Shown piece by piece: positions 18,264 through 29,851 of a DNA stretch of 32,000 nucleotides (the stretch's first letter is position 1; every line of letters starts with the position of its first letter). The translations under genes and the position numbers were made by a program. Below the pieces are notes generated by a model, which made no database searches, was not told the origin of the DNA, and worked only from the letters and a program-made list of their open reading frames with translations. The DNA comes from Candidatus Iainarchaeum sp. (GTDB lineage Archaea; Iainarchaeota; Iainarchaeia; Iainarchaeales; 0-14-0-20-34-12). The stretch is taken from positions 23,228 to 55,227 of the forward strand of contig JAUSKK010000054.1 in the NCBI GenBank assembly GCA_030649345.1. The letters run 5' to 3'.

Positions 18264-20567
18264 ATGAAGATTGGTGGATTTGAAGTAGGAGACTGGGCAG
18301 TTAAAGAAGAAGCAGGAAAACGAAACTTAATTTTTGCATGTAGAGATTGTATTTATTCTGCCAATGTTGTCACAGATCAAGCTTGTAGATTTCATGTTCT
18401 AAAAATTTTATCCGAAGTTCAAGCAGACATTACTGTTTTATCCGAAGTCTATGAACGTGTTTATGATGAACTTCAAACTCAGCAATTATCTGAAGTTGGA
18501 CAATTATTAAACAAGTTTGCAATTGAAAGTGTTTGGGCTACCAATAATTTAGGCAATCCTTTGGGAAAAGCCGATGAAGCTTACTTAAGCAATCGGTACA
18601 GAATTGTGGTAACCATTGCACAAGATTTATTGGCGTTTGATCCAATTCGAGCTTACATTACTTGCTTGCAGGAATTACTGCGCGAACAAGGAAGATTTGA
18701 TAAAGGAAATGAAGAATACAAAAAAGGAAGCAGTGTTTTTTTAAAAACTTTAAATTATTTGCGTACAGAGTTTGAAAAAACTTTAATGATTAAAACTGCT
18801 AAAAAATTTCTCACACAATTGAAAGAAGTTCCAGACACCAAAGAAATTTATCAAACTATGCTGGAAGCTGAAGTCAAGCCTTCGTTTATTGGTTCTCGTT
18901 TATTGTTTGAAGAAGCTGAAGAATTAGAATTGTTAGACGAATATTCTGTTGGAAAAACTTCTGTGCAAATTTTCAGGCATCCGTTGCGTACAGAATCTTT
19001 GTATTTTATTAATCCTCCGGAATATTCTTTGAGTCCGGAAAAATATTTTGTTTTAAGTAAAACTAGAGAAATTGTTGCAGGATACAAACCTGGAAAATCC
19101 AGCTTAAGTGCTTTGTCTAAAGCGCGTACTTATTTTGAACGCATTTATCAGAGTACCATTGCAGATGTTGCTTTGCAAAATAATATTAAATTAGAAAAAG
19201 ATGAAGTCAAAGAACTCAGTGCCATTGTTGCACGTTATTCGATTGGTTATGGGATTTTAGAAATTTTGTTATCCGACCGAAGACTTACAGATATTTATAT
19301 TGATTCTCCGATTGGGCAAAATCCAATTTATGCTGTTCACTCAGATTACGGTCAAGTGAAAACCAATATTTTGTATACTGAAGGCGAAGCTCAATCCATG
19401 GTCACTAAACTAAGAGCTATGAGTGCACGGCCATTCGATGAAGCTCATCCAGTTTTAGACTTTGATTTGCCAGACTTAGATACTCGTGTGGCAACCATTG
19501 GACCGCCTTTGGCTACAGATGGAGTTGCGTTTGCTTTTCGTTTGCATAAATTAACTCCTTGGACTTTATCTCAATTCATTGACGTCAAATATTTGAATTC
19601 AACTGCAGCTGGCTTAATTTCGTTTTTCATTGACAACCAATTAACCATTATTGTTGCAGGTTCTCGTGGATCTGGAAAAACTTCTTTGTTGGGAGCTAAC
19701 TTATTAGAGATTCCAAAAAATACCAGAATATTAATTCAAGAAGACACATTAGAATTGCCAGTTCCGTACATGAAAAAAATTGGATTCAATGTCCAAAGAC
19801 TTAAAACGCAAAGTGCGATTGGCGGAGCAGCTTCCGAAATTGAAATGCCGGCCGATGAAGCTTTGCGGACAACTTTGCGTTTAGGAAATAGTGCCATTAT
19901 TTTGGGTGAAGTTAGAAGCAAAGAAGCCAAAACATTGTATGAAGCCATGCGAGTCGGATCAGCCGGTGGAATTGTCATGGGAACATTGCACGCTGACTCT
20001 GCCTATTCTGTCTGGGACAGAGTTGTTAATGATTTAGAGGTTCCGAATACTTCCTTTAAAGCCACAGACTTAATTATGGTTGCGCGTCCAATTCGTTTCT
20101 CAGGTTCATTGAAGAGTGCCAGAAGAATTGTTCAAATTACAGAAGTCAAAAAACATTGGGTGGATGATCCAGAACGCGAAGAAGGACTGTTGGACTTAAT
20201 GAGTTATGATGCTAAAAAAGATTCTTTGGAATTAATGGAAGACAATTTGAAGGAATCAGAATTATTTGAACGCGTCCGAAAAATGTCAGGCTTAAACTTT
20301 GATGAAATTTGGGCTGAAATTAAAATGCGCGGAGAATCCAAACAATATTTAGTAGATCTTAAACGCGAAAAAAAATTGCCTCAATTATTGGAAGCCGAAT
20401 ATACTTCTTTGGCCAATGATAAATGGCTGTTACTTAAAGAAAAGTTTTTAGAAGAAAATACAAAATTGGACCATGCAGAAATTTTAGGTGAATGGAAAAA
20501 CTGGGTGAATACTTCTTTGCTGAAACGAGTAACTGGTTCCATAAAACCGGAGAAAGGTAAAGAATAA
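18264..20567 (+). CDS. Archaeal type IV pilus/archaellum-type assembly ATPase (FlaI / VirB11 / GspE superfamily), enlarged to 767 aa
   Basis: Walker A AGSRGSGKTS. ILIQEDTLELP (Asp box / Walker B region). RLGNSAIILGEVR. His box GTLHADSA. About 330 aa of unrecognised N-terminal sequence and a K/E-rich C-terminal tail. A probable SD, GGGTG, lies 5 nt upstream. Confidence 0.85.
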   Translation: MKIGGFEVGDWAVKEEAGKRNLIFACRDCIYSANVVTDQACRFHVLKILSEVQADITVLSEVYERVYDELQTQQLSEVGQLLNKFAIESVWATNNLGNPLGKADEAYLSNRYRIVVTIAQDLLAFDPIRAYITCLQELLREQGRFDKGNEEYKKGSSVFLKTLNYLRTEFEKTLMIKTAKKFLTQLKEVPDTKEIYQTMLEAEVKPSFIGSRLLFEEAEELELLDEYSVGKTSVQIFRHPLRTESLYFINPPEYSLSPEKYFVLSKTREIVAGYKPGKSSLSALSKARTYFERIYQSTIADVALQNNIKLEKDEVKELSAIVARYSIGYGILEILLSDRRLTDIYIDSPIGQNPIYAVHSDYGQVKTNILYTEGEAQSMVTKLRAMSARPFDEAHPVLDFDLPDLDTRVATIGPPLATDGVAFAFRLHKLTPWTLSQFIDVKYLNSTAAGLISFFIDNQLTIIVAGSRGSGKTSLLGANLLEIPKNTRILIQEDTLELPVPYMKKIGFNVQRLKTQSAIGGAASEIEMPADEALRTTLRLGNSAIILGEVRSKEAKTLYEAMRVGSAGGIVMGTLHADSAYSVWDRVVNDLEVPNTSFKATDLIMVARPIRFSGSLKSARRIVQITEVKKHWVDDPEREEGLLDLMSYDAKKDSLELMEDNLKESELFERVRKMSGLNFDEIWAEIKMRGESKQYLVDLKREKKLPQLLEAEYTSLANDKWLLLKEKFLEENTKLDHAEILGEWKNWVNTSLLKRVTGSIKPEKGKE

Positions 20568-20584
20568 TTGTGTAGGCTTCTTGC

Positions 20585-22891
20585 ATGGGTAAAGATATTC
20601 GTTACAAAAAAGGAATCAGTCCAGGAGAATTGTATTCTGAAATTATTGTTGAACGCTCGTTCGAAGAAGAAGATGACGAAAAATTAGTTAAAGAAAAACC
20701 CAGTGTATTTGTTTCTTTTTGTAAACGTTTGTATGCTTTTGCTCCTTCTTTGGGGCAAAATGCAAAATTTACTCCCGAGCTCCAAGAAGCTGTGCGTTTT
20801 CTAAATTGGGATTTAAAGCCAGCAGAATTTAGTGCAGCTTCCAAGTTAGCATTAATTATTTCTTTATTGATTGGATTAATCATTGCAGTTATTGCCATTA
20901 ATTTAGGTCCAGTTTCAGACTTTTTGAAAGGAGCCATTGGAGACTTAGGTCCAATGGTTGTATTTGCCGTTCCTTTAGTTTTGGCTTTGTATATTACCAA
21001 TTTTATTCAACAATTTCCATTGAATGCTGCTTTAATGGAACAAAGAAAAGCTTTGACTTATGTCCCAGAAATTATCGGCTATCTAATCATGTCTTTGAAA
21101 TTAACTCCGAATTTAGAAAAAGGTTTAGAGTTTGCCAGCAAAAACGGAAAAGGAAAAATTTCTGAAGATTTCAAAAAAATATTATGGGACATTCAATTGG
21201 GAACCTATGATACTGTGGCTGAAGCTTTAGATGAACTGGCATACAAATGGGGAAAATACAGTTCTGAATTCAAGCAAGCCTTAATGATGGTTCGTGCTTC
21301 CATTCTGGAAGAAACCGAAGCCAAACGATATGCTTTATTGGATAAGACCATGGAAAATATTTTGGCCAGTATTAAAGACAAAATGGAACAATATGCACGC
21401 GATTTATCTCAGCCTTCCATTGTTTTGTTTTACATTGGAGTATTGCTTCCATTAATTTTAATTATAATTCTTCCAGTTGGTTCTGCTTTTACAGGAAGTC
21501 CTTTGGCTCAGCCTTTGGTTTTAATTTTAATTTATAATGTTGGAATTCCTTTGTTTGCCTATTTTTATGCTTTAAAAGTAATTCGAACACGACCTCCAAC
21601 TTACGAGCCTCCAATAATTCAAGACAATTATCCAGGCTTGCCGAAGAAATGGAAAATGAAATTAGGCACAACTGAAATGGATGTGCGTTTTTTGGTTGCA
21701 ATTGTTTTTGTTTTAGGAATTATTTTTTCAGTTGGTTTATCTACTCAAGGTTTGCCGCCGAAATTTTTAATGCCGGATCAAACAGAACAACAAATTGTAG
21801 CTGCAGATAAAAGTTATGCAGAAGTTTTAGACCGAGCTGGACGAACCCCAGACTATTTTGATGACACTGGAACTTTATATCAGCAATATGTCCGGCAAGG
21901 ATTAAGTGAAGAAAAAGCTTTAGATAAAGTTAAACTCGATCGCGCTCAATTTTTTAATACAGCCGAAAACGATGTAACTCCCAGTTTATTGGTGTTTGGT
22001 GTAATCATTACTTTTGCAATTTGTATTTATTTATTTTTTCATTACAGTACAGTGTACAAACGAAAAGCTCAAATGGAAATCATGGAATTGGAATCAGAGT
22101 TTAAAGATTCATTGTATGTTTTGGCTTCTCGTTTAGGTGAATCCAGGCCAGTCGAAGAAGCTTTAGAGCATACGCGTAGATTTTTGCCGAATCTTAAAAT
22201 TTCCGAACGAGTCTTTGGTAAAACCATTGACAATATTCGAATGATGAGCCTGCCTTTAGAGCAAGCAGTATTCCATCCAGTGTATGGTTCTTTGGTCAAT
22301 GTTCCGTCGAAGATTGTTCAAGGCGGAATGAAAATCATGGTAGACTCAGTTCAATTAGGAGTGAATGTAGCAGCCAAAACTTTAATTTCTTTGTCTTTGC
22401 AGTTAGAGAATTCAGAAAAAGTCAATAAAGTCATGCGGGATTTAGTTTCAGAAATTACGAATATGATGATTACCATGTCGACTTTTATTGCACCAGTTGT
22501 CTTGGGAATTACAACTGCTTTACAAAAAGTAGTCATGGTTACTTTAGCTTCCATTATTGGCTCTAACATTTCCAACGAACCTCAAGGTTCTTCTTTGAAT
22601 TTACCGCCGGGTGTTCCTTTAGGTTCTGATATTAGTTCAGGTGTGAGCGGAAATTTTTTGAAGCCAGATGCATTCGGTTCCATGGTAACTCCTTTGCAGT
22701 TTTTATTAATTGTCGGCTTTTATGTAATTGAATTAGCTGTGATTATGATTTTTTATGTAACCAAAGTCCAAGAAGACAATGACTTAATGTTTAAAATGAA
22801 TTTAGCCAAATTTTTGCCCATTTCTATGGTGGCATTTGTGGCTGCTGTAATTGCATCCAATTTAGTGGTTGCAGGATTCGGCGGAGGATAA
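20585..22891 (+). CDS. Polytopic pilus platform protein (FlaJ/TadC/PilC-like, T2SS-F superfamily), 768 aa
   Basis: Sits immediately downstream of the ATPase (17-nt gap). Many hydrophobic helices alternate with soluble loops, which is the usual partner arrangement for FlaI-type ATPases. I could not verify a strong sequence motif by eye. Confidence 0.65.
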   Translation: MGKDIRYKKGISPGELYSEIIVERSFEEEDDEKLVKEKPSVFVSFCKRLYAFAPSLGQNAKFTPELQEAVRFLNWDLKPAEFSAASKLALIISLLIGLIIAVIAINLGPVSDFLKGAIGDLGPMVVFAVPLVLALYITNFIQQFPLNAALMEQRKALTYVPEIIGYLIMSLKLTPNLEKGLEFASKNGKGKISEDFKKILWDIQLGTYDTVAEALDELAYKWGKYSSEFKQALMMVRASILEETEAKRYALLDKTMENILASIKDKMEQYARDLSQPSIVLFYIGVLLPLILIIILPVGSAFTGSPLAQPLVLILIYNVGIPLFAYFYALKVIRTRPPTYEPPIIQDNYPGLPKKWKMKLGTTEMDVRFLVAIVFVLGIIFSVGLSTQGLPPKFLMPDQTEQQIVAADKSYAEVLDRAGRTPDYFDDTGTLYQQYVRQGLSEEKALDKVKLDRAQFFNTAENDVTPSLLVFGVIITFAICIYLFFHYSTVYKRKAQMEIMELESEFKDSLYVLASRLGESRPVEEALEHTRRFLPNLKISERVFGKTIDNIRMMSLPLEQAVFHPVYGSLVNVPSKIVQGGMKIMVDSVQLGVNVAAKTLISLSLQLENSEKVNKVMRDLVSEITNMMITMSTFIAPVVLGITTALQKVVMVTLASIIGSNISNEPQGSSLNLPPGVPLGSDISSGVSGNFLKPDAFGSMVTPLQFLLIVGFYVIELAVIMIFYVTKVQEDNDLMFKMNLAKFLPISMVAFVAAVIASNLVVAGFGGG

Positions 22892-22893
22892 TT

Positions 22894-23004
22894 GTGAATT
22901 CAAAATTTGCAATTTTGAAAATTTGTGAAAATTTAAGAGATTTCCACAATTATAAAATTCAGAAGAATTTTATATATTTAAAATTCCAGGGGAATTTTAA
23001 ATGA
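22894..23004 (+). repeat. Copy A of a conserved pre-pilin intergenic module. It carries the TATA-like box ttttatatatttaaaa (22968-22983) and can also be read as a 36-codon small ORF.
   Basis: Near-identical to 28826-28963: gaattcaaaat..attttgaaaatttgtgaaaattta.g.gatttc...cacaattataaaatt....aattttatatatttaaaattccagg. It starts 2 nt after the platform gene's stop, and its TGA overlaps the pilin ATG (ATGA). Confidence 0.7.
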
Positions 23005-23498
23005 ATTCGCGCGGTCAAGCTGGAGCAGTTTTTCGTTTTCTAGTTGAAGTCATTATGGGTGCTTTAATTTTAGCCATTATTTTGGGAGCAGTCAATTATT
23101 TTTCGCAAGCTCGCATTGACGTAAGTGAACGCAGACTCAGCAATGCGTTTGAAAATGCATTTGAAAAAGTCATTGGAAATCCAGATCCAACAACTCAAAG
23201 TGTAGTACTTGAAAAAGACTTGTTAATGCAGCCCATTATTTATGGAACCAAACAATTTTCTTCAGGCTATGATATTGAAGATGTTTGTATTGATTTTATT
23301 TCTAGTTCTAATAAAGTATTTCAAGTTGGCCAAGGTAATAAAACCATTGAAATCAAGCAAAGCATTCAAACCAATGTATTCATGCAATGTTTTGCAGCTT
23401 CAGCAGTTCCAATTAGCTCTCCTTCGGTTTCAGATCCAACAAATTGTCCGATTTATTGCATTATTTCTTTTGGAAAACCTTTGCCTTTGCCGGCATAG
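23001..23498 (+). CDS. Archaeal type IV pilin-like protein with class III signal peptide (165 aa)
   Basis: MNSRG|QAGAVFRFLVEVIMGALILAIILGAV: short basic leader, [KR]G-Q cleavage motif, then a hydrophobic helix. The C-terminal end is Cys-containing (CPIYCIISFGKPLPLPA). Confidence 0.75.
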   Translation: MNSRGQAGAVFRFLVEVIMGALILAIILGAVNYFSQARIDVSERRLSNAFENAFEKVIGNPDPTTQSVVLEKDLLMQPIIYGTKQFSSGYDIEDVCIDFISSSNKVFQVGQGNKTIEIKQSIQTNVFMQCFAASAVPISSPSVSDPTNCPIYCIISFGKPLPLPA

Positions 23499-23572: not shown

Positions 23573-23935
23573 ATGGCCAAGATTTTTGCCAAAACACTTT
23601 CCAAAGAAGTAATTGTGAATGTAAATAAACAGTTTACAGACGGAAGTATTCGAAGCGAAGGAGAAATTGATTTTATTGTATTTAGAGTTGCTAATGTTCG
23701 AGGCATTGATCAAAAAGCAGCAACTTTGTTAATGGAAATTGCCAGAAGGCATGCCTTTGTTGACGGAAACAAGCGAACTGCTTTTGAATGCATGATAACG
23801 TTTTTAGAATTGAATGGAAAGAAATTAATTGTAGGAGAAACCTCTAGATTTAATGTAGTGGTCTGGAGTGTGAAACCTAAAACAAAATTGGACGAAATTG
23901 TAACCTGGATTGCCAATCACACAAGGAAAGAATGA
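23573..23935 (+). CDS. doc: Doc (death-on-curing) family Fic-fold toxin (120 aa)
   Basis: Doc-type variant of the Fic motif, HAFVDGNKRTAF (H-x-F-x-D-[AG]-N-K-R). The size and helical context are typical of Doc. Confidence 0.8.
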   Translation: MAKIFAKTLSKEVIVNVNKQFTDGSIRSEGEIDFIVFRVANVRGIDQKAATLLMEIARRHAFVDGNKRTAFECMITFLELNGKKLIVGETSRFNVVVWSVKPKTKLDEIVTWIANHTRKE

Positions 23936-23940
23936 TTTTT

Positions 23941-24069
23941 ATGCAAATAATTAAAATTAAAGGAAAACGTGAACCCATTACTTTAGCTGAATGGAAAGAC
24001 GTCAAACATATTGTAAAAGCTCATTTAAAAGAATACAAAGACTTTTACGCTCAGCTGGCTGAACTATAA
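23941..24069 (+). CDS. 42-aa ORF co-oriented with doc and 5 nt downstream of it. Candidate cognate antitoxin in reversed gene order.
   Basis: Hand translation: MQIIKIKGKREPITLAEWKDVKHIVKAHLKEYKDFYAQLAEL. It falls below the track's length cutoff. No family recognised. No Phd-like gene lies upstream of doc. Confidence 0.35.
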   Translation: MQIIKIKGKREPITLAEWKDVKHIVKAHLKEYKDFYAQLAEL

Positions 24070-24185: not shown

Positions 24186-24710
24186 ATGAATTCAAGAGGA
24201 CAGGCATTTTCAACATTTCAATTGCTGATTGCTGCAATTGTAGCTATTGCTATTTTGGCAATTTTATTCCAGATTATTGGAATCATTCCAGGCATTGGAC
24301 AACAAGAACCTAGTTCGAATGCAGCTAATTTAGTGAAAGACTTAGTCAACAAACCCTATACTCCGAAAACCAGTTCTCAAGTGACTTTCAAAAGCGGAGA
24401 CAGTATTAATGTCAAAGCTATTGCAGCAGCCAGTCAAGCTGGTGCAACAGAAGAAAATATTATTTTAAGCTTAGGAGACTTTGAAGGAACCACTGGATTT
24501 GAAGGTAGCGGATCACTGATTACTTACACGGCTGGTTCATCTAAAAATGTAAAATTATGGGCAGTTTGCTCTCCTAAAGGTGAAATCGGTACTACGGTAC
24601 AAAGTTTAGGTCCATCTGAAAAAATTAGAGCTGCTAGTGAATCATGTACTACTGACAGCGATGAAGACATCTGTTGTTTAATTGCTTTGCGAACCACAGG
24701 CTCTGGCTAA
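24186..24710 (+). CDS. Archaeal type IV pilin-like protein with class III signal peptide (174 aa from the ATG at 24186)
   Basis: MNSRG|QAFSTFQLLIAAIVAIAILAILF. The SD-like AGGTGA lies about 9 nt upstream of the ATG at 24186. The track's GTG start at 24174 is probably an over-extension. C-terminal Cys motif DICCLIALR. Confidence 0.8.
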   Translation: MNSRGQAFSTFQLLIAAIVAIAILAILFQIIGIIPGIGQQEPSSNAANLVKDLVNKPYTPKTSSQVTFKSGDSINVKAIAAASQAGATEENIILSLGDFEGTTGFEGSGSLITYTAGSSKNVKLWAVCSPKGEIGTTVQSLGPSEKIRAASESCTTDSDEDICCLIALRTTGSG

Positions 24711-24731: not shown

Positions 24732-24751
24732 CTTTTTCATTATTCTTTACT

Positions 24752-24856: not shown

Positions 24857-24967
24857 AAATACCGGAAACGTAGTCTCGAATTGTTTTTAAACAAAGTCCA
24901 ATTAATATATCTTGAACTGGCATAAATTAGTGTGATATGGCAAAGCAAGAATAAAACAGGCGAAACT

Positions 24968-25816
24968 ATGGATAAAAATATTATTACAAAGCTTCAGCAA
25001 ACATTTGAAGATTGCGTTCAAACAGCAGGTGGATTAGACTTTTGGTTTGCGCGAGACTTGCAGAAACTTCTTGGCTATGATAAATGGGAAAACTTTATCA
25101 AGGTTATTGAAAAAGCAAAAACCGCCTGTAAGAATTCAGGCTATGAAATAAATGACCATTTTCTTGATTCCAGGAAAAAGGTCGAGATTGGATCTGGGGC
25201 AGAAAGGGAAATTGAAGACGCAATGCTTACACGATATGCGTGTTACATGGTTGCACAAAATGGAGATTCCAGAAAAGAAGAAATTGCATTTGCGCAAAGC
25301 TATTTTGCAGTTCAGACAAGAAAACAAGAGTTAATTGAGCAAAGAATAGCATTACAAGAAAGATTTGAAGCAAGAAGTAAATTCATTGCATCCGAAACAG
25401 AATTATCTAAATTAATCTACGAACGCGGGGTTGATAATGCTGGTTTTGCAAGAATACGAAGTAAAGGTGACCAAATTCTTTTTGGTGGTTATACAACTGC
25501 TCAAATGAAAAATAAACTGGGTGTTTCTGAAACTAAACCGCTTGCAGACTTTCTTCCGACAATAACTGTTACAGCAAAGAATTTTGCCACAGAAATAACA
25601 AACTTTAATTTAAAAAAAGAAGAACTAAAAGGAGAAGAATCCATAACCAAAGAACATATGAAAAATAATGCCGGTGTTCGCGGATTGCTGAAGAAAAGAG
25701 GAATAAAACCAGAAGAACTGCCTCCTGAAGAAGATATTAAAAAATTAGAACGAAAAGTTAAGAAAGACGAACAGAGACTTGCAAATAATTCTAGTGAAAA
25801 GAAAAAGCTAAAATAA
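24968..25816 (+). CDS. dinD: DNA damage-inducible protein D (DinD)-like protein (282 aa from the ATG at 24968)
   Basis: From memory, it resembles E. coli DinD along its length: WFARDLQKLLGYDKWENFIKVIEKAKTACKNSGYEINDHF, LTRYACYMVAQNGDSRKEEIAFAQSYFAVQTRKQE, and PEELPPEEDIKKLE near the C-terminus. The track's GTG start at 24932 is probably an over-extension. Confidence 0.75.
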   Translation: MDKNIITKLQQTFEDCVQTAGGLDFWFARDLQKLLGYDKWENFIKVIEKAKTACKNSGYEINDHFLDSRKKVEIGSGAEREIEDAMLTRYACYMVAQNGDSRKEEIAFAQSYFAVQTRKQELIEQRIALQERFEARSKFIASETELSKLIYERGVDNAGFARIRSKGDQILFGGYTTAQMKNKLGVSETKPLADFLPTITVTAKNFATEITNFNLKKEELKGEESITKEHMKNNAGVRGLLKKRGIKPEELPPEEDIKKLERKVKKDEQRLANNSSEKKKLK

Positions 25817-25909
25817 AGCTCTAAATTGCCTTTAAGTTAAGTACTTTTTCAGCTGATGTTTGTGAATTTTCAAAACCTTTAAATAAAACAATGCTTGCTA
25901 TTATAGTAT

Positions 25910-26089
25910 ATGGTATTGAAGCTTTCAAAAACTGAATTCGAACAGTTACAGGAAGAATTGCATGAAATTAGAATGGAACGCTTAAGTTTCACTCTCCGTT
26001 TTTGCACATGGATTCACAATCGAATGCATCCAGATATGTTTAAGCGTTATCCACAAAAATTTCTTCCAGAACCAATTGCATGTGATTAA
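25910..26089 (+). CDS. Hypothetical 59-aa protein
   Basis: Hand translation: MVLKLSKTEFEQLQEELHEIRMERLSFTLRFCTWIHNRMHPDMFKRYPQKFLPEPIACD. A TATA-like ctttaaataaaa lies about 25-30 nt upstream. Its stop (26087-26089) sits 1 nt before the ATG of the next gene. It is one codon short of the track cutoff. Confidence 0.35.
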   Translation: MVLKLSKTEFEQLQEELHEIRMERLSFTLRFCTWIHNRMHPDMFKRYPQKFLPEPIACD

Positions 26090-26090
26090 A

Positions 26091-26288
26091 ATGAACTTCA
26101 AAAACTTAATTGAAAAAATTAAAACTTTCTTCAAAAGCGAACGCGCTCAAAACGAATGGAGCACAGTTTACTTATTGATTGTTTTAATTATTGCCGCGCT
26201 GGTATTAATTGCTGTAGTCAAACCCATGTTCCAACAATCCCAAGATGTAGTGGCTAGAACAACTCAAAGTGTCCAGCAAGGCCCGTAA
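26091..26288 (+). CDS. Small class III signal-peptide pilin (65 aa), candidate major pilin
   Basis: MNFKNLIEKIKTFFKSERA|QNEWSTVYLLIVLIIAALVLIAVVKPMF. This is the layout of short archaeal pilins: basic leader, [KR]A-Q, then a roughly 22-aa hydrophobic helix and a short tail. The track's TTG start at 26076 is probably an over-extension. Confidence 0.7.
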   Translation: MNFKNLIEKIKTFFKSERAQNEWSTVYLLIVLIIAALVLIAVVKPMFQQSQDVVARTTQSVQQGP

Positions 26289-26319
26289 CTTATTTAATTG
26301 TTTTCAAGATTGACTTGTT

Positions 26320-26841
26320 ATGAAGTTTAGATACAAATTTGTTTTGTTTTTAGTTATTTTGGCTTTAATTTATTATTTATTTTCTTTTATTGGCTTAGGC
26401 TCAGCAGTCTTGTCTTTGTATAAGTATGCTTTTTTTGGAATGCTGGCTTTTTTGCTTTTAGTTATTTTGTTGTTAGTTTACCTTGCGTATAGTTTCAGAA
26501 AACGAATGAAAAAAGTTGAAAAAATGTTCAACGAAAAATTTGCACACATGCAAAATATTGATCAAGATTATTGGAAAAATAATGCACCCGAAGAAGTGAA
26601 TTCAAAAATTGTGGAAGAATTAACTCAAGTAACTGAAAAATATAAATCAACGCTAGAAGAATTGGGTGCATTTCCTCCATTGCAAGAAGTCATGTATGTT
26701 TTGGGCCAAAATGAATCCAATTTTAAGCAATTTTACGTTAATCCAAATTTAGAAAAACTAATTTTAGAAGAAAAACAAAACCTTAGTTTTGTCACTATTG
26801 AATACTGCAAAAAAGAATTCGAAAACAAATTCCCGCATTAA
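26320..26841 (+). CDS. Hypothetical membrane protein (2 TM helices plus a soluble K/E-rich domain), 173 aa
   Basis: The N-terminal 60 aa form two hydrophobic helices (FVLFLVILALIYYLFSFIG, FFGMLAFLLLVILLLVYLAY), followed by RKRMKK. No family recognised. It is embedded in the pilus locus. Confidence 0.6.
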   Translation: MKFRYKFVLFLVILALIYYLFSFIGLGSAVLSLYKYAFFGMLAFLLLVILLLVYLAYSFRKRMKKVEKMFNEKFAHMQNIDQDYWKNNAPEEVNSKIVEELTQVTEKYKSTLEELGAFPPLQEVMYVLGQNESNFKQFYVNPNLEKLILEEKQNLSFVTIEYCKKEFENKFPH

Positions 26842-26905
26842 ACACTGGTTTTCTGCAGTTTGTGTATTAAAGTATTAAATAATAGAATTTCCTTAATAGT
26901 GGTAT

Positions 26906-27481
26906 ATGCTTTTTTTCCGAAATTCTAAAGCTCAAATGAGTGCACCCTTTGAGTTATTGGTGGCAGTCATTATTATGGGCTTTGTGATTGTAGTAGGCAT
27001 GCAAGCCTTAGAACAATTAAGAGTAGAACAATGTAAAGGACAAATTCAAAAAAGTATGCAAGATTTTAAATCTGCAATTGAAGAATCAACTAATTTGGGA
27101 ACTCCTCAAAATTTTATTTTTGCTCCTCCGTCTTGTTTTCATTTAGAAACCAGCACAGGAAGAAGAACTGGCGGAGATGAAATTTCAGTCAAGCGTTCCA
27201 CCAATAGTTTTTTGTGCTCGCGTTTATGCGGCGGAACCAAAAACGAATGTGTCTTAATGGAATATTTCAGCCAAGAATATTCTGAACGAGTCTGCATTAA
27301 TATTAGTCCAGTGACGTATTTTATTAGTACCCAGACTGGTGATTGTCCTGCTGAAGATGATCCAAGTAAATACGATCCTGTTGATCCAGCTGTAGCTGTA
27401 TTGCGCGGAAATTATACTTCTATTAATCAAAAAGAAACCGGTGATCCGTTTGACACTATGTGTTTGTATCGAAGAAAATAG
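26906..27481 (+). CDS. Cys-rich archaeal pilin-like protein with class III signal peptide (191 aa)
   Basis: MLFFRNSKA|QMSAPFELLVAVIIMGFVIVVG. The globular part has multiple Cys. The C-terminal end DTMCLYRRK resembles those of the 23001 and 24186 pilins. Confidence 0.75.
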   Translation: MLFFRNSKAQMSAPFELLVAVIIMGFVIVVGMQALEQLRVEQCKGQIQKSMQDFKSAIEESTNLGTPQNFIFAPPSCFHLETSTGRRTGGDEISVKRSTNSFLCSRLCGGTKNECVLMEYFSQEYSERVCINISPVTYFISTQTGDCPAEDDPSKYDPVDPAVAVLRGNYTSINQKETGDPFDTMCLYRRK

Positions 27482-27493
27482 AGTTGAACATTT

Positions 27494-28147
27494 ATGGTGA
27501 TGGTTGGATTTACTTTAAGTAAAATTAATTTGCTGATTTTTGTTACAGCCATGTTTGTGATTATTGTCTATTTTACGTTTGGATTCAGTGAAGTTTTACT
27601 CAAACAACAAACTGCTCAAATGATTAACCGGTACGCAGGCGAAGCTTTAAGCTTGGTGAATTCTAAAAGTTTGTGCGTGCAAAATACCATTACTTTCCCA
27701 GACTCTATTTCGTATGTTGGAAGCCAGCGTATTTTTTATATTTTAAAAATTGAAAAAGTTGAGTCTTTAGATGAAACCAAACCGAATAGTTTAATTTTTA
27801 CAATTTTTCCCAGAAAAGAACCCAACAAAGTTTTGGCTTCCCGAAGAATTGATACTTTGGCTGAAATTCACTTTTTTAATCAACTGCTGGGATCTCCAGC
27901 CGGATTTGAAACAGATGCATTATTTGTTTTAATTGATTCGCAATCCGTGCCTCCCTTGGATTCTTTGTTTATTGCCAAAGAAAGTTTTCAAGGAAACGAA
28001 TTCATTTACTTAACGAACTGTTCTTCTACCACGACCGGCGGTTGTTTTGGAAATGTTCGAGCAGTTGGAAACTGGATTGCGAATTCAGCAGCTGAACGAA
28101 GCAGTGTTTCTTTATGTGTTCCGTATACTGCGAGTGGATCATCCTGA
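27494..28147 (+). CDS. Pilin-like protein with a bacterial-style G|FTL prepilin motif (217 aa)
   Basis: MVMVG|FTLSKINLLIFVTAMFVIIVYFTFGF matches the bacterial type IV prepilin pattern G-F-T-L-x-E plus hydrophobic helix, except that position +5 is Lys rather than Glu. Confidence 0.6.
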   Translation: MVMVGFTLSKINLLIFVTAMFVIIVYFTFGFSEVLLKQQTAQMINRYAGEALSLVNSKSLCVQNTITFPDSISYVGSQRIFYILKIEKVESLDETKPNSLIFTIFPRKEPNKVLASRRIDTLAEIHFFNQLLGSPAGFETDALFVLIDSQSVPPLDSLFIAKESFQGNEFIYLTNCSSTTTGGCFGNVRAVGNWIANSAAERSSVSLCVPYTASGSS

Positions 28148-28824
28148 AAAAAAATTTATTTTCTCAAAAAGGTTCTGCGAAGCATTTTTTGGTAAAGCTT
28201 TTGTGCTTCAGCAAAAAAGGTTTTCTAGGTCCAATTGGAGATGACTTGCCGAGTTTAATTCCTTTGTTGTTTGGTTTGGTGATTTTTTTTGCAACTTTTT
28301 CTTTTGCTTTTCAAGTATTTGACCGGGGCAATTTAGCTTTTGATGATGCTGTCAAAATTGTAAAAATCAGCCAAGGCCTAAAAGGAGATTCGTATTTAGG
28401 AAGTGCAGAAGAATTTTTTCAGTCTTGCCAAGAAGTCAGTGTCCGAGGCTTAAACTTTAAAGCATTTATTGTAGATTATCCTAAGGCAACTATTGCAATG
28501 GGGGCTCCAGGGCCTCCGCGTTTTAAAATTTTAGAATTAACCAATGAATATCCCTCTACTTTGCATAACTTCGGCGTGTTTTCTGTAGCTGATGTTCCTA
28601 ACTGTCCTTTCGAAAGTCTTAATCCTTGTCCTTTAGCTTGTGTTTCTTCTTCAGATTTGCCTATATTAACTGGAAATGAACGCATTCAAACCAGAATGTT
28701 TCCGATTGCTTTTCAAGATCAAAAAAAATGCATGCCTTTTGAAAATCCTTTAACTGACTTTTGTAATAACAGTGGTTTTATTGTTCGTCCTTTGACTTTA
28801 GTGGTTGTAACTTGGAGAGGCTAA
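28114..28824 (+). CDS. Pilin-like or pilus-accessory protein. The start is uncertain (ATG 28114 or in-frame TTG 28189).
   Basis: The ATG at 28114 overlaps the upstream gene by 34 nt. An in-frame TTG at 28189 would give (M)VKLLCFSKKG|FLGPIGDDLPSLIPLLFGLVIFFATFSFAF, a class III-like leader plus hydrophobic helix. Confidence 0.55.
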   Translation: MCSVYCEWIILKKNLFSQKGSAKHFLVKLLCFSKKGFLGPIGDDLPSLIPLLFGLVIFFATFSFAFQVFDRGNLAFDDAVKIVKISQGLKGDSYLGSAEEFFQSCQEVSVRGLNFKAFIVDYPKATIAMGAPGPPRFKILELTNEYPSTLHNFGVFSVADVPNCPFESLNPCPLACVSSSDLPILTGNERIQTRMFPIAFQDQKKCMPFENPLTDFCNNSGFIVRPLTLVVVTWRG

Positions 28825-28825
28825 A

Positions 28826-28963
28826 ATGAATTCAAAATTGCTGATTTTGAAAATTTGTGAAAATTTAGGGGATTTCAAAATAGTTGTTGAAAACTTAATA
28901 GGTTTTCACAATTATAAAATTAAAAATAATTTTATATATTTAAAATTCCAGGAGGGCTTTTAA
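28826..28963 (+). repeat. Copy B of the conserved pre-pilin module. It carries the TATA-like box at 28930-28945 and can be read as a 45-codon ORF.
   Basis: Same sequence as 22894-23004 plus a 30-nt in-frame internal duplication (about 28877-28906; gaaaatttaggggatttc vs gaaaacttaataggttttc). It starts 1 nt after the upstream stop, and its TAA directly abuts the pilin ATG at 28964. Confidence 0.7.
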
Positions 28964-29851
28964 ATGCTTAATCTGAAAAAAGTGTTTAATTCGCGAGCTC
29001 AATCTTCGGTCACAGATGCCATGTATTTTTTGATTATTATTGCCGGCTTGTCTGCTTTTATGTTTGTGATTTCCAATAGCTATGGTCAAAGCATTGACCG
29101 GCAAATGGATTCCCAGTACAGAGTTGAGTATGCGAATTCTGCGTTGAAAACAGTTTTGTATTCAAGTCTGCCGAGAAATGTAAATCAATCTTTAGCTGAA
29201 TCTACGGAAGTGGATTATTTGCTGACTGCCATTAAAGAAGATTATGCTAACACGCGTTCATTAAGTCCGCAAACTCAACTCATTGTTTTAGATACTGTAA
29301 AAGCAGTCATGCAACCGGTTTCAAGTGCATTTGATTTTATGTTTTTTATTTATTTGCCAGAACGTGTATTTGCAGACATTACTCCTTCAGGTACAGGTAC
29401 TGGAGGAACTGCAGTTAGCACTCCAGGCGGAACAGGGACTGATGCAAGCACAACTCCGCAAGCCAGTCAATTGGTTTTATTGATTTTAAAAAAGACACCC
29501 ATTCAAACTGGTTCACCTATTTCAGGCAGGCCAGATTTAGGGAACGAAATTCCAACTGGGCGAAATGCATTTCTGGTGAATAATGAAGTTTATTTCTTTT
29601 GTCAGCCTCCGGATTTTCAATTTATCACCAACCGAATTCTTCCAAGATTAGCAAACTTAGCCAAGCCTTTGGAAAGCCGAGTGTATTTGTCTGTATTTCA
29701 ACGCTTGGGTGCAGGCACTGGCACAGAAACATTTGATGCAAGAGCAAATTTAATTTTATGGACTCCTACTCAATTTACTGATGATGAATTAACGAAATTA
29801 GATTGCGATCCTGAAAGTACAGTGCGTGCCAGTTTGCCTGCAAGTCCTTAA
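28964..29851 (+). CDS. Large pilin-like protein with class III signal peptide and a Thr/Gly-rich linker (295 aa)
   Basis: MLNLKKVFNSRA|QSSVTDAMYFLIIIAGLSAFMFVI. Internal low-complexity tract TPSGTGTGGTAVSTPGGTGTDASTTPQAS. Confidence 0.7.
   Translation: MLNLKKVFNSRAQSSVTDAMYFLIIIAGLSAFMFVISNSYGQSIDRQMDSQYRVEYANSALKTVLYSSLPRNVNQSLAESTEVDYLLTAIKEDYANTRSLSPQTQLIVLDTVKAVMQPVSSAFDFMFFIYLPERVFADITPSGTGTGGTAVSTPGGTGTDASTTPQASQLVLLILKKTPIQTGSPISGRPDLGNEIPTGRNAFLVNNEVYFFCQPPDFQFITNRILPRLANLAKPLESRVYLSVFQRLGAGTGTETFDARANLILWTPTQFTDDELTKLDCDPESTVRASLPASP

What the first reader, a model, noticed from the sequence alone, without database searches (positions are those of the whole stretch)
18264..29851. 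Archaeal type IV pilus-like locus with about seven divergent pilin-like genes and no prepilin peptidase
An ATPase and a platform gene are followed by pilin-like ORFs starting at 23001, 24186, 26091, 26906, 27494, 28114/28189 and 28964. Five show the leader-[KR][GA]-Q-hydrophobic helix pattern: NSRG|Q, NSRG|Q, SERA|Q, NSKA|Q and NSRA|Q. The products range from 65 to 295 aa, and three (23001, 24186, 26906) share a C-terminal Cys-hydrophobic-basic ending. No PibD/FlaK/EppA-type aspartyl peptidase is present, and no FlaG/F/H/X or KaiC-like accessory proteins, so the locus does not match the archaellum layout or any named adhesive-pilus layout I know. The number and diversity of pilins, the size of the core proteins and the adjacency to giant surface proteins suggest a specialised, possibly host-contact, filament.
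Basis: partly seen in the sequence, partly recalled or inferred. Interest (0 to 1): 0.7.

Follow-up and report, generated by a model that had tools for sequence, protein, structure and literature searches.

The report
Conserved type IV pilus locus of Iainarchaeota
This is the standard, well conserved type IV pilus gene cluster of a group of tiny uncultured archaea (Iainarchaeota, formerly Diapherotrites): an assembly ATPase, a membrane platform and seven pilin-like proteins of unannotated families; it is real and intact, but it is a lineage-specific version of a known machine rather than a new kind.

Summary
Genes 18264-29851 (+) encode a T2SSE-family ATPase with all four catalytic motifs, a 9-TM T2SSF-family platform and seven proteins that each have one N-terminal membrane helix. 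Five carry [KR][GA]|Q. One (p6) carries KG|F. One (p5) has G|F with no charged -2 residue.

The window is from a Ca. Diapherotrites (Iainarchaeota, DPANN) MAG. Related contigs keep the same order: ATPase, platform, pil1, pil2, pil3, pil4, p5, p6, pil7. So the seven are one-to-one orthologous families, not a local oddity.

Four further genes inside the cluster are absent from the relatives. They are a Doc toxin, a Bro-N protein, a 59-aa ORF and a 2-TM protein.

None of the seven families hits Pfam or NCBIfam. AlphaFold models of pil2 and p6 show a long N-terminal helix plus a globular head, with no Foldseek match in the PDB.

A prepilin peptidase missing from the locus is normal for archaea, so it does not make the locus unusual. 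The layout combines features of published archaeal system 1 (Epd) and system 2. T4P islands with unannotated pilins in DPANN are already published.

Verdict: a non-archaellum, probably adhesive, type IV filament; a new variant of a known kind. Interest is moderate to low. The host-contact role is untested.

The parts
18264..20567 (+). Assembly ATPase (PilB/FlaI/TadA superfamily), 767 aa, with an N-terminal extension of about 300 aa
   Evidence: Pfam T2SSE E=1.1e-19. Walker A, Asp box, Walker B and His box are intact. NCBIfam FlaI 148 bits against a cutoff of 550, TadA 127 against 373, BasE 85 against 1000. Best solved relatives: A. fulgidus GspE 2OAP 113 bits, FlaI 93, CpaF 85, all aligning only from residue ~297-324 onward. 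100% identical to an NCBI protein of a Ca. Diapherotrites MAG.
20585..22891 (+). Membrane platform protein (TadC/FlaJ/PilC-like), 768 aa, 9 predicted TM helices
   Evidence: Pfam T2SSF 25.3 bits against a cutoff of 25.2, residues 166-297. 12 of 12 orthologs hit T2SSF at E<=0.05. TM scan. It always follows the ATPase directly. No second T2SSF repeat is detectable by hhalign of the N half against the C half.
23001..23498 (+). pil1: pilin-like, 165 aa, MNSRG|Q, C-terminal C-x3-C-x-[VI]SFGK
   Evidence: Single N-terminal TM. Cleavage-type motif and Cys motif conserved in 11 orthologs. No Pfam or NCBIfam hit.
24186..24710 (+). pil2: pilin-like, 174 aa, MNSRG|Q. Candidate major pilin, tandemly duplicated in L003 and L005
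   Evidence: Invariant G5, Q6 and hydrophobic helix in 26 homologs, all labelled 'hypothetical' and from Diapherotrites. AF2 pLDDT 86: helix 5-31 plus an alpha/beta head, with the last strand carrying the CC motif. No Foldseek PDB hit below E=0.4. Duplications seen.
26091..26288 (+). pil3: 65-aa helix-only pilin-like protein, KSERA|Q, mature about 46 aa. Alternative candidate major pilin (Flp/EpdE-sized)
   Evidence: The most conserved of the seven, 50-74% identity to orthologs. Motif A|Q-x-EW-S-x-VY...VKPMFQQ is shared by 8 orthologs.
26906..27481 (+). pil4: Cys-rich pilin-like, 191 aa, RNSKA|Q, C-terminal C-x-Y-x-[KR]
   Evidence: Conserved G/A|Q-E-x-APFE-LL start and Cys pattern in 8 orthologs. 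Duplicated in L015.
27494..28147 (+). p5: pilin-like protein without a canonical class III site (M-x(1-5)-G|FTLSK, no charged -2 residue), 217 aa
   Evidence: N-terminus G-F-[TI]-L-S-K-x-N-L-L-I conserved in 7 orthologs (A replaces G in one); single TM. A charged -2 residue is reported as critical for archaeal peptidases (PMC4371748), so processing is doubtful.
28201..28824 (+). p6: pilin-like, 207 aa (TTG start at 28201, or at 28189), KKG|F followed by invariant GPxGDDLPSLIP
   Evidence: 202 homologs, all unnamed or Diapherotrites, no Pfam. Invariant G-P-x-G-D-D-L-P-S-L-I-P in 110 sequences. AF2 pLDDT 84: a 46-residue N-terminal helix (20-65) plus a beta-sheet head. No Foldseek PDB hit below E=0.28. 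Start codon.
28964..29851 (+). pil7: largest pilin-like protein, 295 aa, FNSRA|Q-S-S-V-T-D, with a Thr/Gly-rich insert
   Evidence: Conserved [KR][GA]|Q-[SA]-[SA]-[VI]-T-D-A start in 5 orthologs; always last in the cluster.
23573..24069 (+). Insertion: Doc/Fic-family toxin gene plus an overlapping 45-aa ORF. Not part of the machine
   Evidence: Pfam Fic/DOC E=1.1e-8. The 45-aa ORF overlaps it by 4 nt. Absent from orthologous clusters.
24932..26089 (+). Insertion: Bro-N domain protein and a 59-aa ORF. Not part of the machine
   Evidence: Pfam Bro-N E=3.5e-9. No homolog in related loci.
26320..26841 (+). Window-specific 2-TM protein, 173 aa. Not pilin-like
   Evidence: Two TM helices and no class III motif. 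No homolog in related loci.
15287..15832 (-). Small archaeosortase/exosortase-family protein, a frequent neighbour of the ATPase gene
   Evidence: NCBIfam TIGR04178 32.5 bits against a cutoff of 23. Conserved LCTG..E, N..RI and H[ND].LFR motifs. Present beside the ATPase in L003-L006, L008, L010, L013 and L014, and after pil2 in L002. No protein with a C-terminal sorting signal was found in any locus.
2..7564 (-). Giant surface protein (more than 2521 aa; its 3' end runs off the window start), orthologs of which recur beside the locus
   Evidence: Open frame. N-terminal cytoplasmic stub, then a TM helix, then CarboxypepD_reg repeats. Orthologs lie next to the archaeosortase-like gene or the ATPase in L002-L006, L008, L013 and L014.
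29852..31850 (-). Two Lys/Glu-rich proteins convergent on pil7: a 316-aa protein with a C-terminal multi-CxxC zinc ribbon, and a 347-aa protein with 3 N-terminal TM helices. Recurrent neighbours of unknown role
   Evidence: Homologs sit in the same position in L005, L006 and L015. No significant Pfam hit.

Best explanation
The locus encodes a non-motility type IV filament (an adhesive-type pilus) of an Iainarchaeota (DPANN) archaeon.

Shown:
- A catalytically intact PilB/FlaI-superfamily ATPase and a polytopic T2SSF-family platform are followed by seven intact genes.
- Each of the seven products is a single-pass protein with an N-terminal hydrophobic helix.
- Six carry a conserved [KR][GA]| site just before that helix.
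- The seven are one-to-one orthologous families kept in a fixed order across the phylum.
- Two of them (pil2 and p6) model as a long N-terminal helix plus a globular head.

Inferred:
- The precursors insert into the membrane.
- An A24-type prepilin peptidase encoded elsewhere removes the short basic leader. The conserved +1 Gln of five of them fits the substrate rule reported for EppA-type enzymes.
- The ATPase, docked on the platform, lifts the subunits out of the membrane and polymerises them through their N-terminal helices.
- One or two families are the major subunit. pil2 is tandemly duplicated in some genomes. pil3 is a helix-only protein of about 46 aa when mature, and is the most conserved of the seven.
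- The other families (pil1, pil4, p5, p6, pil7) act as minor pilins in a priming, tip or base complex.
- The filament most likely mediates attachment to surfaces or partner cells. It may work together with the neighbouring giant surface protein.
For: - ATPase: T2SSE domain and all four nucleotide-binding motifs. Nearest solved relatives are archaeal GspE, FlaI and CpaF.
- Platform: T2SSF in 12 of 12 orthologs, 9 TM helices.
- Pilins: one N-terminal TM helix each. The [KR][GA]|Q pattern is found only in these genes in the window. The sites are conserved in orthologs.
- Published processing rules: G/A/S at -1 and a charged -2 residue for archaeal peptidases; +1 Gln required by EppA; Epd pilin sites RAQI and KGQV (PMC4371748).
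- Models: pil2 pLDDT 86 and p6 pLDDT 84 both show a helix-plus-head shape. The p6 helix is 46 residues long.
- Synteny: ATPase, platform, pil1, pil2, pil3, pil4, p5, p6, pil7 in the same order in L005, L006 (where pil1 and pil3 were recovered), L008 (as far as the contig runs), L014, L015 and L017. In L002 the pil3-pil7 block is inverted.
- All seven genes are full length relative to their orthologs.
- Not an archaellum: there are no FlaH, FlaF/G, FlaX or archaellin hits, and the FlaI equivalog model scores 148 bits against a cutoff of 550.
- Literature: system 2 is described as having N-extended ATPases, a single platform gene, pilins with and without SPIII, and large adhesin-like proteins. 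Clade 1 has major pilins of about 70 aa and at least 5 minor pilins. T4P is already annotated in Diapherotrites genomes (PMC8561730).
Against: - No prepilin peptidase was found in the window or in about 250 kb of related loci. I could not search whole genomes.
- None of the seven families matches a Pfam or NCBIfam pilin model.
- Neither model has a significant Foldseek match to solved pilins. Pilin identity therefore rests on N-terminal features, overall shape and gene context.
- p5 lacks the charged -2 residue. One pil3 ortholog has E at -1 and another has N at -2.
- The C-terminal half of the platform shows no detectable second T2SSF repeat, and the platform profile finds nothing in the PDB.
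- Four foreign genes interrupt the cluster in this genome, which could disturb co-expression.
- There is no expression, filament or function evidence. The sequence comes from a MAG.
Confidence: 0.78

Rival explanations
1. Host-contact apparatus. The pilus, the neighbouring giant surface protein and the small archaeosortase-family enzyme form one functional unit. An episymbiotic Iainarchaeota cell uses it to seize, and perhaps breach, a partner cell. This refines the best explanation rather than excluding it.
For: - An archaeosortase-family gene lies beside the ATPase in 8 related loci and within the cluster in L002.
- A giant-protein ortholog lies next to it in 8 loci, at ATPase identities of only 61-68%.
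- In L005 and L014 a further class III-type gene (MN[QE][RK]A|FNLFTAL) flanks the giant gene.
- The L005 giant protein ends in an SLT transglycosylase domain, E=2.3e-10.
- Type IV pili trigger episymbiosis in the analogous ultrasmall Saccharibacteria (PMC9894109, title and abstract only).
Against: - L015/L016 and L017 have the full pilus cluster but no archaeosortase-like or giant gene beside it.
- L013 keeps the giant gene, the archaeosortase-like gene and the ATPase, but has no platform or pilin genes nearby.
- No SLT hit is on record for the L013 and L014 giant proteins.
- No protein with a C-terminal sorting signal was found, so the archaeosortase has no visible substrate here.
- In the window, five unrelated genes separate the giant genes from the ATPase.
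- No host is known for this lineage.
Confidence: 0.2
2. A short pseudopilus or uptake machine, like the ComG competence pilus or a bindosome or type II secretion pseudopilus, rather than a long adhesive filament. The ATPase-platform-pilin operon would build a short fibre that takes up DNA or nutrients, or helps export or display surface proteins.
For: - The operon plan, with an ATPase and a platform followed by a run of one major and several minor pilin genes, is the plan of the bacterial comG operon (my own knowledge).
- Many SPIII proteins in archaea are proposed to functionalise TFF machines for substrate scavenging (bioRxiv 10.64898/2026.04.22.720090).
- DPANN organisms depend on external nucleotides and metabolites (general knowledge).
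Against: - No ComEA or ComEC, no substrate-binding-protein domains and no secretin-like partners are in the window.
- The BasE (bindosome ATPase) model scores 85 bits against a cutoff of 1000.
- None of the seven proteins has a solute-binding fold signature.
Confidence: 0.12
3. Archaellum (motility filament).
For: The best NCBIfam hit of the ATPase is the FlaI model, E=4.3e-43.
Against: - That score is 148 bits against a cutoff of 550.
- There are no FlaH/KaiC, FlaF, FlaG, FlaX or FlaC/D/E proteins and no archaellin-family protein.
- All archaella carry those seven components (PMC4858521).
- The ATPase has a 300-aa N-terminal extension, whereas archaellum ATPases are described as the minimal form.
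Confidence: 0.01
4. The downstream ORFs are unrelated small membrane or secreted proteins, and the pilin-like N-termini are coincidental.
For: No pilin family model and no solved pilin structure matches them.
Against: - Conserved [KR][GA]| sites lie directly before the only TM helix in six families, across many genomes.
- Order and linkage to the ATPase and platform are fixed.
- The pattern is absent from other ORFs of the window.
- The AF2 models have a helix-plus-head shape.
Confidence: 0.04

Closest known systems
Archaeal TFF 'system 2' / Makarova clade 2 (euryarchaeal T4P, e.g. the Haloferax volcanii PilB4-type locus with its own pilin set)
   Same: - ATPase with an extended N-terminal region.
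- A single platform gene.
- Several distinct pilin genes in the locus, some with and some without a canonical class III motif.
- Large adhesin-like proteins nearby.
- Peptidase encoded elsewhere.
- The nearest solved ATPase is A. fulgidus GspE. A. fulgidus is named among organisms with system 2 loci.
- More distant ATPase relatives come from Thermoplasmata, Methanomassiliicoccales and Hadarchaeales as well as other DPANN.
   Different: - No detectable PilA-family or arCOG02911-type pilin; I had no arCOG profiles, and Pfam and NCBIfam are negative.
- The seven pilin families are confined to Iainarchaeota in my searches.
- Five sites have +1 Gln, which is the Epd/EppA hallmark.
- A helix-only pilin of about 46 aa is present.
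- ATPase clade membership was not established by phylogeny.
Epd pilus of Methanococcus maripaludis / 'system 1' (clade 1)
   Same: - Class III sites of the [KR][GA]|Q type (Epd: RAQI, KGQV, KGQL, KGQI).
- A very short pilin of about 70 aa or less, which is the major subunit in Epd pili.
- Five or more further pilin-like genes in the locus.
- Large adhesin-like neighbours.
- System 1 is reported in some DPANN.
   Different: - System 1 has two platform genes; this locus has one of 768 aa.
- EppA and a MinD/FleN ATPase are often in the system 1 locus; both are absent here.
- No DUF2341 adhesin.
- pil3 lies inside the cluster rather than standing alone.
- No hit to the Pfam class III signal or pilin models.
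DPANN T4P 'dark matter' islands (Makarova, Wolf and Koonin 2019, PMC6393860, Fig. 2A)
   Same: The same idea: in some DPANN genomes, FlaI-like and TadC-like genes are flanked by unannotated proteins with signal peptides, which the authors interpret as diverse pilins.
   Different: That paper gives examples only. It does not describe the seven-family fixed-order module, the conserved N-terminal motifs, or the recurrent archaeosortase-like and giant neighbours reported here. I could not see which genomes the figure shows.
Bacterial Tad/Flp pilus and ComG competence pilus operons
   Same: - A helix-only pilin of about 45-50 aa (as in Flp).
- An operon with an ATPase, a platform and then a run of major and minor pilin genes (as in ComG).
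- The TadA-family model is the second-best NCBIfam hit, 127 bits.
   Different: - The archaeal-type charged -2 residue and +1 Gln, rather than G|xxxxEY or G|FTLxE.
- No TadV, secretin, or ComEA/ComEC.
- All scores are far below the family cutoffs.
Archaellum
   Same: Homologous ATPase and platform; class III-processed subunits.
   Different: No FlaH, FlaF, FlaG, FlaX or FlaCDE and no archaellins. The ATPase is far below the FlaI cutoff and carries an N-terminal extension.

Membership tests
Type IV filament (TFF) superfamily, archaeal branch | Secretion ATPase of the T2SSE/VirB11 family with intact nucleotide-binding motifs | tested here: met
   Pfam T2SSE E=1.1e-19. Walker A, Asp box, Walker B and His box present. 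Archaeal GspE and FlaI are the best PDB hits.
Type IV filament (TFF) superfamily, archaeal branch | Polytopic platform protein of the T2SSF (TadC/FlaJ/PilC) family next to the ATPase | tested here: met
   T2SSF 25.3 bits against a cutoff of 25.2. 12 of 12 orthologs hit at E<=0.05. 9 TM helices. Only one T2SSF repeat is detectable.
Type IV filament (TFF) superfamily, archaeal branch | Filament subunits with a class III signal peptide: G/A/S at -1, a charged -2 residue, and the cleavage site preceding the hydrophobic domain | tested here: met
   Six of seven families fit, and the sites are conserved in orthologs. Rule taken from PMC4371748. p5 does not fit because it has no charged -2 residue. 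Cleavage itself was not tested.
Type IV filament (TFF) superfamily, archaeal branch | Class III (A24) prepilin peptidase in the genome | not testable with these tools
   None in the 32-kb window or in the related loci, by Pfam and NCBIfam scans of the called proteins and by a motif scan. Whole genomes could not be searched. Look-ups meant to extend the contig failed.
Archaellum | FlaH (KaiC-like), FlaF, FlaG, FlaX or FlaC/D/E, and archaellins alongside FlaI and FlaJ | tested here: not met
   No such Pfam or NCBIfam hits in the window. The seven-component requirement is from PMC4858521.
Archaellum | ATPase reaches the FlaI equivalog score | tested here: not met
   NF058587: 147.8 bits against a cutoff of 550.
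Archaeal TFF system 1 (Epd) | Two separate platform genes | tested here: not met
   One 768-aa platform gene here and in all related loci.
Archaeal TFF system 1 (Epd) | Dedicated EppA (9-TM) peptidase, often in the locus | tested here: not met
   Absent from the window and from the related loci.
Archaeal TFF system 1 (Epd) | +1 Gln in pilin processing sites and a short (~70 aa) pilin of the size of the Epd major pilin | tested here: met
   Five [KR][GA]|Q sites. pil3 is 65 aa here and 50-69 aa in orthologs. Rules. That pil3 is the major subunit is an inference.
Archaeal TFF system 2 | N-terminally extended ATPase, a single platform gene, several pilins with and without SPIII, and large adhesin-like genes in or near the locus | tested here: met
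   Solved homologs align only from residue ~297-324 of the 767-aa ATPase. Gene content. Description of system 2.
Archaeal TFF system 2 | ATPase branches in clade 2; signature pilin arCOG02911 and a PilA-family major pilin | not tested
   - No reference set of clade-labelled ATPases and no arCOG profiles were available.
- Indirect indication: afGspE 113 bits, above FlaI 93, CpaF 85 and BasE 85.
- Relatives come from Thermoplasmata, Methanomassiliicoccales, Hadarchaeales, Altiarchaeota and Nanoarchaeota.
Bindosome (Bas) system | BasE-type ATPase | tested here: not met
   NF053672: 84.9 bits against a cutoff of 1000.
Exosortase/archaeosortase family (gene 15287-15832) | Family signature model and the conserved Cys/Arg/His motifs | tested here: met
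   TIGR04178 32.5 bits against a cutoff of 23. All named subfamily models score far below their cutoffs. LCTG, RI and H..LFR are conserved in 10 orthologs.
Exosortase/archaeosortase family (gene 15287-15832) | Cognate substrate with a C-terminal motif, TM helix and basic tail | tested here: not met
   No such protein in the window or in L002-L014; only the sortases themselves matched the pattern. The pilin C-terminal Cys endings are too short to be a TM sorting signal.

The most novel reading that the evidence does not exclude
The locus is the core of a TFF subsystem specific to Iainarchaeota that fits neither published system 1 nor system 2. It combines a single fused-size platform and an N-extended ATPase, as in system 2, with +1-Gln pilins and a helix-only Flp/EpdE-like subunit, as in system 1. 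It has five further pilin families of new folds. It is coupled to a dedicated small archaeosortase-family enzyme and a giant surface protein, forming a host-contact device. A stronger form of the idea is that these genomes lack a canonical A24 peptidase and process the pilins by another route.
Probability: 0.15. Interest if true: 0.65.

Novelty: new variant of a known kind. Interest (0 to 1): 0.33.

Why it matters
Iainarchaeota (Diapherotrites) have no cultured member, and it is unsettled whether they live freely or on hosts. In the comparable ultrasmall Saccharibacteria, type IV pili trigger episymbiosis (PMC9894109, title and abstract only).

This locus is the phylum's conserved surface-filament machine. 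Nearly all of it is annotated as 'hypothetical' in the public records I saw.

Defining the seven orthologous pilin families and their diagnostic motifs would allow:
- proper annotation (new Pfam or arCOG families, MacSyFinder models);
- targeted proteomics for processed N-termini;
- cryo-ET interpretation.

Examples of diagnostic motifs are G-P-x-G-D-D-L-P-S-L-I-P in p6 and A|Q-x-EW-S-x-VY in pil3.

The mixture of system 1 and system 2 traits also bears on how archaeal TFF systems, and the bacterial Tad pilus thought to derive from Epd-like systems, diversified. None of this overturns current understanding.

Tried and rejected
1. Extending the contig to look for the peptidase. Exact-protein look-ups of window genes returned one 1.8-kb Logan contig or nothing.

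2. Motif scan for A24 peptidases (D-[LIVM]-[KR]..., G-x-[GA]-D-x-[KR]) over the window and L001-L012. It found nothing.

3. I recalled the M. maripaludis FlaK sequence and validated it against 3S0X. I ran no further search on it. Close methanogen relatives would have filled the 120 listed hits, so a negative result for Iainarchaeota would have meant nothing.

4. Foldseek of the pil2 and p6 models against the PDB gave no significant hits. This neither supports nor excludes a pilin fold, because the models are dominated by one long helix.

5. The platform profile against PDB sequences gave no hit at E<=1. hhalign of the platform N half against its C half found no repeat.

6. I considered the conserved C-terminal Cys endings as archaeosortase sorting signals and rejected this. 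They have only 3-5 hydrophobic residues and no TM segment. A disulfide-tethered last beta-strand is more likely; the pil2 model ends in strand 162-170, which carries the CC motif.

7. I considered building an ATPase tree with afGspE, FlaI and CpaF and dropped it. All 150 nearest cluster representatives score at least 252 bits, against about 113 bits for the best reference. The references would only act as outgroups and could not assign a Makarova clade.

8. Rejected from gene content: archaellum; a conjugation or Ced/Ted-type system (no VirB4/HerA-type genes); and a competence system.

9. No tRNA or Rfam family is in the window.

Full report
**Origin of the window**

The ATPase gene product is 100% identical to an NCBI protein of a 'Candidatus Diapherotrites archaeon' MAG, on a contig of 55,227 bp. 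pil2 and p6 match hypothetical proteins Q7S92_07175 and Q7S92_07210 of the same record. NCBI taxonomy places such organisms in Archaea, Nanobdellati (DPANN), Candidatus Iainarchaeota. G+C is 31-41%. There are no tRNA genes and no Rfam matches.

**Gene content**

On the - strand:
- a giant ORF at 2-7564, more than 2521 aa, whose 3' end runs off the window start;
- a 2184-aa ORF at 8359-14913;
- a small archaeosortase-family gene at 15287-15832;
- MutY at 15835-16968;
- two lipobox proteins at 17000-17383 and 17414-18073.

On the + strand:
- a rhodanese gene at 14996-15319;
- from 18264 to 29851, the ATPase, the platform and eleven further ORFs.

Two Lys/Glu-rich genes at 29852-31850 (- strand) converge on the end of the cluster.

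**Check of the observation**

The ATPase is 767 aa.
- It has a T2SSE domain, E=1.1e-19.
- It has intact Walker A, Asp box, Walker B and His box motifs.

The platform is 768 aa.
- It has 9 predicted TM helices.
- It has a T2SSF domain just at the Pfam threshold.
- All 12 orthologs I aligned hit the same model at E<=0.05.

Each of the seven pilin-like ORFs has exactly one N-terminal TM helix.
- Five have [KR][GA]|Q.
- p6 has KKG|F. It starts at a TTG, at 28201 or 28189, not at the 28114 ATG.
- p5 starts MVMVG|FTLSK, with no basic residue before the glycine.

In a six-frame control over the window, the [KR][GA]Q-plus-hydrophobic pattern occurs only in these genes. No A24 peptidase and no archaellum accessory protein is in the window.

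One correction applies: four non-pilin genes sit inside the cluster. They are a Doc/Fic gene, a Bro-N gene, a 59-aa ORF and a 2-TM ORF.

**Comparative evidence**

- The ATPase has hundreds of full-length orthologs at 59-70% identity. Almost all that carry a name are from Diapherotrites.
- I read sixteen related loci.
- They show a fixed order: ATPase, platform, pil1, pil2 (one or two copies), pil3, pil4 (one or two copies), p5, p6, pil7.
- L014 is the compact form. Its seven genes of 151, 183, 62, 177, 215, 210 and 248 aa abut one another.
- L002 has the pil3-pil7 block inverted upstream of the ATPase.
- L013 has the ATPase without the rest.
- The Doc, Bro-N, 59-aa and 2-TM genes of the window have no counterpart in the related loci. 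L015 instead carries a PIN/MazE pair after pil3. Toxin-antitoxin and mobile genes evidently insert into this cluster repeatedly.
- Identity of orthologs to the window proteins:
  - ATPase 61-68%
  - platform 46-56% (BLASTP 46-55%; up to 56% in the A3 alignment)
  - pil3 50-74%
  - the other six families 24-55% (full-length matches 24-40%)

**The pilin families**

Alignments show conserved processing-type sites and family-specific N-termini:
- pil2: G|QAFSTFQLLIAAIVA
- pil3: A|Q-x-EW-S-x-VY...VKPMFQQ
- pil4: G/A|Q-E-x-APFE-LL
- p5: G-F-[TI]-L-S-K-x-N-L-L-I (A replaces G in one ortholog)
- p6: G|F-L-G-P-I-G-D-D-L-P-S-L-I-P, invariant in 110 sequences
- pil7: G/A|Q-[SA]-[SA]-[VI]-T-D-A

None of the seven hits Pfam or NCBIfam, in the window or in L014. 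Database homologs of pil2 (28) and p6 (202) are all unnamed or from Diapherotrites, and have no Pfam domain on record.

AlphaFold models:
- pil2, pLDDT 86: helix 5-31, a short linker, and an alpha/beta head whose last strand carries the CC motif.
- p6, pLDDT 84: a 46-residue N-terminal helix and a beta-sheet head.

This is the general shape of type IV pilins. Foldseek finds no significant PDB match for either model, so fold-level homology to solved pilins is not shown.

**Mechanism**

The most likely reading is a non-motility type IV filament.

Published rules say that archaeal prepilin peptidases need G/A/S at -1 and a charged -2 residue. EppA of Methanococcus needs +1 Gln, and the Epd pilin sites read RAQI, KGQV and similar (PMC4371748). 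Six of the seven families fit the general rule, and five fit the EppA-type rule. I therefore predict an A24 peptidase, possibly EppA-like, encoded elsewhere in the genome.

Its absence from the locus is ordinary. Makarova et al. 2016 report a peptidase in most archaea that have a secretion ATPase, and report only EppA as often found in the system's own gene context.

Which family forms the bulk of the filament is open.
- pil2 is tandemly duplicated in L003 and L005, and duplication is typical of major pilins.
- pil3 is the best conserved. It is a helix-only subunit of about 46 aa when mature, like Flp or the ~70-aa clade 1 major pilins.

The remaining families are most simply minor pilins.

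p5 lacks a canonical site. [quoted passage not shown]

**Comparison with known systems**

Archaellum: excluded. There is no FlaH, FlaF/G, FlaX or archaellin. The FlaI model scores 148 bits against a cutoff of 550.

BasE: excluded, at 85 bits against a cutoff of 1000.

System 2, as described in the 2026 preprint of Sivabalasarma and Albers, fits well. Its features are N-extended ATPases, one platform gene, several pilins with and without SPIII, and large adhesin-like genes.

Three features point instead to system 1 (Epd), which the same preprint reports in some DPANN:
- the +1 Gln sites;
- the very short pilin;
- at least five further pilin genes.

But system 1 has two platform genes and often has EppA and MinD in the locus. 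None of these is present here.

I could not place the ATPase in Makarova's clades. The nearest solved structures are:
- A. fulgidus GspE, 113 bits
- FlaI, 93 bits
- CpaF, 85 bits

All three align only from residue ~297-324 onward.

An exhaustive search of 1.84 billion cluster representatives found 305 clusters at E<=1e-30.
- Full-length relatives at 31-52% identity include other DPANN and Altiarchaeota.
- A wider set shares only residues ~200-750. It includes Thermoplasmata, Methanomassiliicoccales, Hadarchaeales and Nanoarchaeota.
- None of the 20 representatives I looked up comes from a cultured model organism.

The first ~200 residues, which include a conserved C-R-[DN]-C motif, are confined to the narrower group.

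**Prior knowledge and novelty**

- T4P genes are routinely noted in Diapherotrites genomes (PMC8561730).
- Makarova, Wolf and Koonin (2019) showed DPANN islands in which FlaI-like and TadC-like genes are flanked by unannotated signal-peptide proteins, which they read as pilins.

What I did not find described:
- the seven-family, fixed-order module of Iainarchaeota;
- its diagnostic motifs;
- its mixed system 1 and system 2 character.

I rate it a new variant of a known kind, with moderate to low interest.

**Neighbours**

A small archaeosortase-family gene accompanies the locus.
- TIGR04178 scores above its cutoff, and the Cys/Arg/His motifs are conserved.
- It lies beside the ATPase in eight related loci, and inside the cluster in L002.

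An ortholog of the first giant protein sits next to the archaeosortase-like gene or the ATPase in eight loci.
- Its build is an N-terminal cytoplasmic stub, a TM helix and CarboxypepD_reg repeats.
- In L005 and L014 another class III-type gene flanks the giant gene.
- The L005 giant protein ends in an SLT transglycosylase domain. No SLT hit is on record for the L013 and L014 orthologs.

Evidence that weakens a functional link:
- L015/L016 and L017 have the pilus cluster without these neighbours.
- No protein with a C-terminal sorting signal was found in any locus.

A functional link between pilus, sortase and giant protein is therefore possible but unproven. The 'host-contact' idea remains a hypothesis.

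**Limits**

- Everything rests on sequence, synteny and predicted structure from metagenome assemblies.
- Cleavage, polymerisation, expression and function are all inferred.
- The genome-wide presence of a prepilin peptidase could not be tested with the tools and look-ups available.

Noticed in passing
window 22895-23001 and 28827-28963: The intergenic regions upstream of pil1 and pil7 are about 85% identical over roughly 107 nt. Each holds a perfect palindrome TTCAAAATT-N3-AATTTTGAA (22899-22919 and 28831-28851) and a TTTATATATTTAAA box about 25 nt before the ATG. This looks like a duplicated promoter and operator, which would suggest co-regulation by one DNA-binding factor. In L014 the two genes abut their upstream neighbours, so the duplication may be specific to this genome.
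   Followed up: partly
window 23573-24069, 24932-26089, 26320-26841; L015 7386-8047: Foreign genes sit inside the pilin cluster. In the window they are a Doc/Fic toxin with an overlapping downstream 45-aa ORF, a Bro-N protein with a 59-aa ORF, and a 2-TM protein. In L015 a PIN/MazE pair lies at a similar position, with ParE and HicAB genes nearby. The cluster appears to be a recurrent landing site for toxin-antitoxin or mobile genes.
   Followed up: partly
L007 2251-6081, L008 9992-13828, L012 2943-6764; P0003, P0063, P0078 and others: Many ATPase orthologs are 1270-1290 aa long and carry an intein (PF14528, PF14890). It is inserted after the residue equivalent to ~496, at the Asp box (ILIQEDTLE, 489-497). 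The window's ATPase has no intein.
   Followed up: no
window 15287-15832 (-); orthologs in L002-L006, L008, L010, L013, L014: A small (174-242 aa) exosortase/archaeosortase-family protein. It passes the family signature model but none of the named subfamily models. It recurs next to the pilus ATPase gene, and no cognate C-terminal sorting-signal substrate is visible in any locus.
   Followed up: partly
window 2-7564 (-); L005 441-9155 (-); L013 68-9010; L014 480-8681: A giant surface-protein family of 2700-2980 aa. It has a conserved cytoplasmic N-terminal stub of about 40 aa (..EDKWY.LLD.L..KGIP..), one TM helix and CarboxypepD_reg repeats. The L005 member ends in an SLT lytic transglycosylase domain, E=2.3e-10, which is odd for an archaeon without murein and would suggest a bacterial target. 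No SLT hit is on record for the L013 and L014 members. The C-terminus of the window's copy lies outside the window.
   Followed up: partly
L005 1-395 (-); L014 1-463 (-): A further class III-type gene (MNQRA|FNLFTALVAF..., MNEKA|FNLFTALLSF...) lies just beyond the giant gene. It may be an eighth pilin-like family associated with the giant protein. The equivalent position lies outside the window.
   Followed up: no
window 8359-14913 (-): A second giant protein of 2184 aa, with an N-terminal signal anchor, no Pfam hit at all and no homolog in the related loci.
   Followed up: no
window 29852-30802 (-) and 30807-31850 (-); L005 20654-22255, L006 18353-19120, L015 12024-13947: Two Lys/Glu-rich proteins recur immediately downstream of pil7 on the opposite strand. 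One has a C-terminal cluster of CxxC zinc-ribbon motifs and is conserved in L005, L006 and L015. The other has three N-terminal TM helices and has a detected homolog only in L015. Their function is unknown; they could be accessory or regulatory parts of the system.
   Followed up: no
window 17000-17383 (-) and 17414-18073 (-): Two small secreted proteins with archaeal lipobox-like signal peptides (...LAGC) and Cys-rich bodies lie between MutY and the ATPase. They are not conserved in the related loci.
   Followed up: no
L003 (JAFCBY010000012.1); P0275: A contig carrying the complete archaeal locus is deposited under 'Candidatus Falkowbacteria bacterium', and a close ATPase homolog is labelled '[bacterium]'. 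These are probably binning or labelling errors in public MAGs.
   Followed up: no
L012 37-1949: Directly upstream of the pilus locus in this relative lie the 3' part of a second T2SSE-type ATPase gene and two membrane-protein genes. This suggests a second secretion or TFF-like system in some Iainarchaeota.
   Followed up: no
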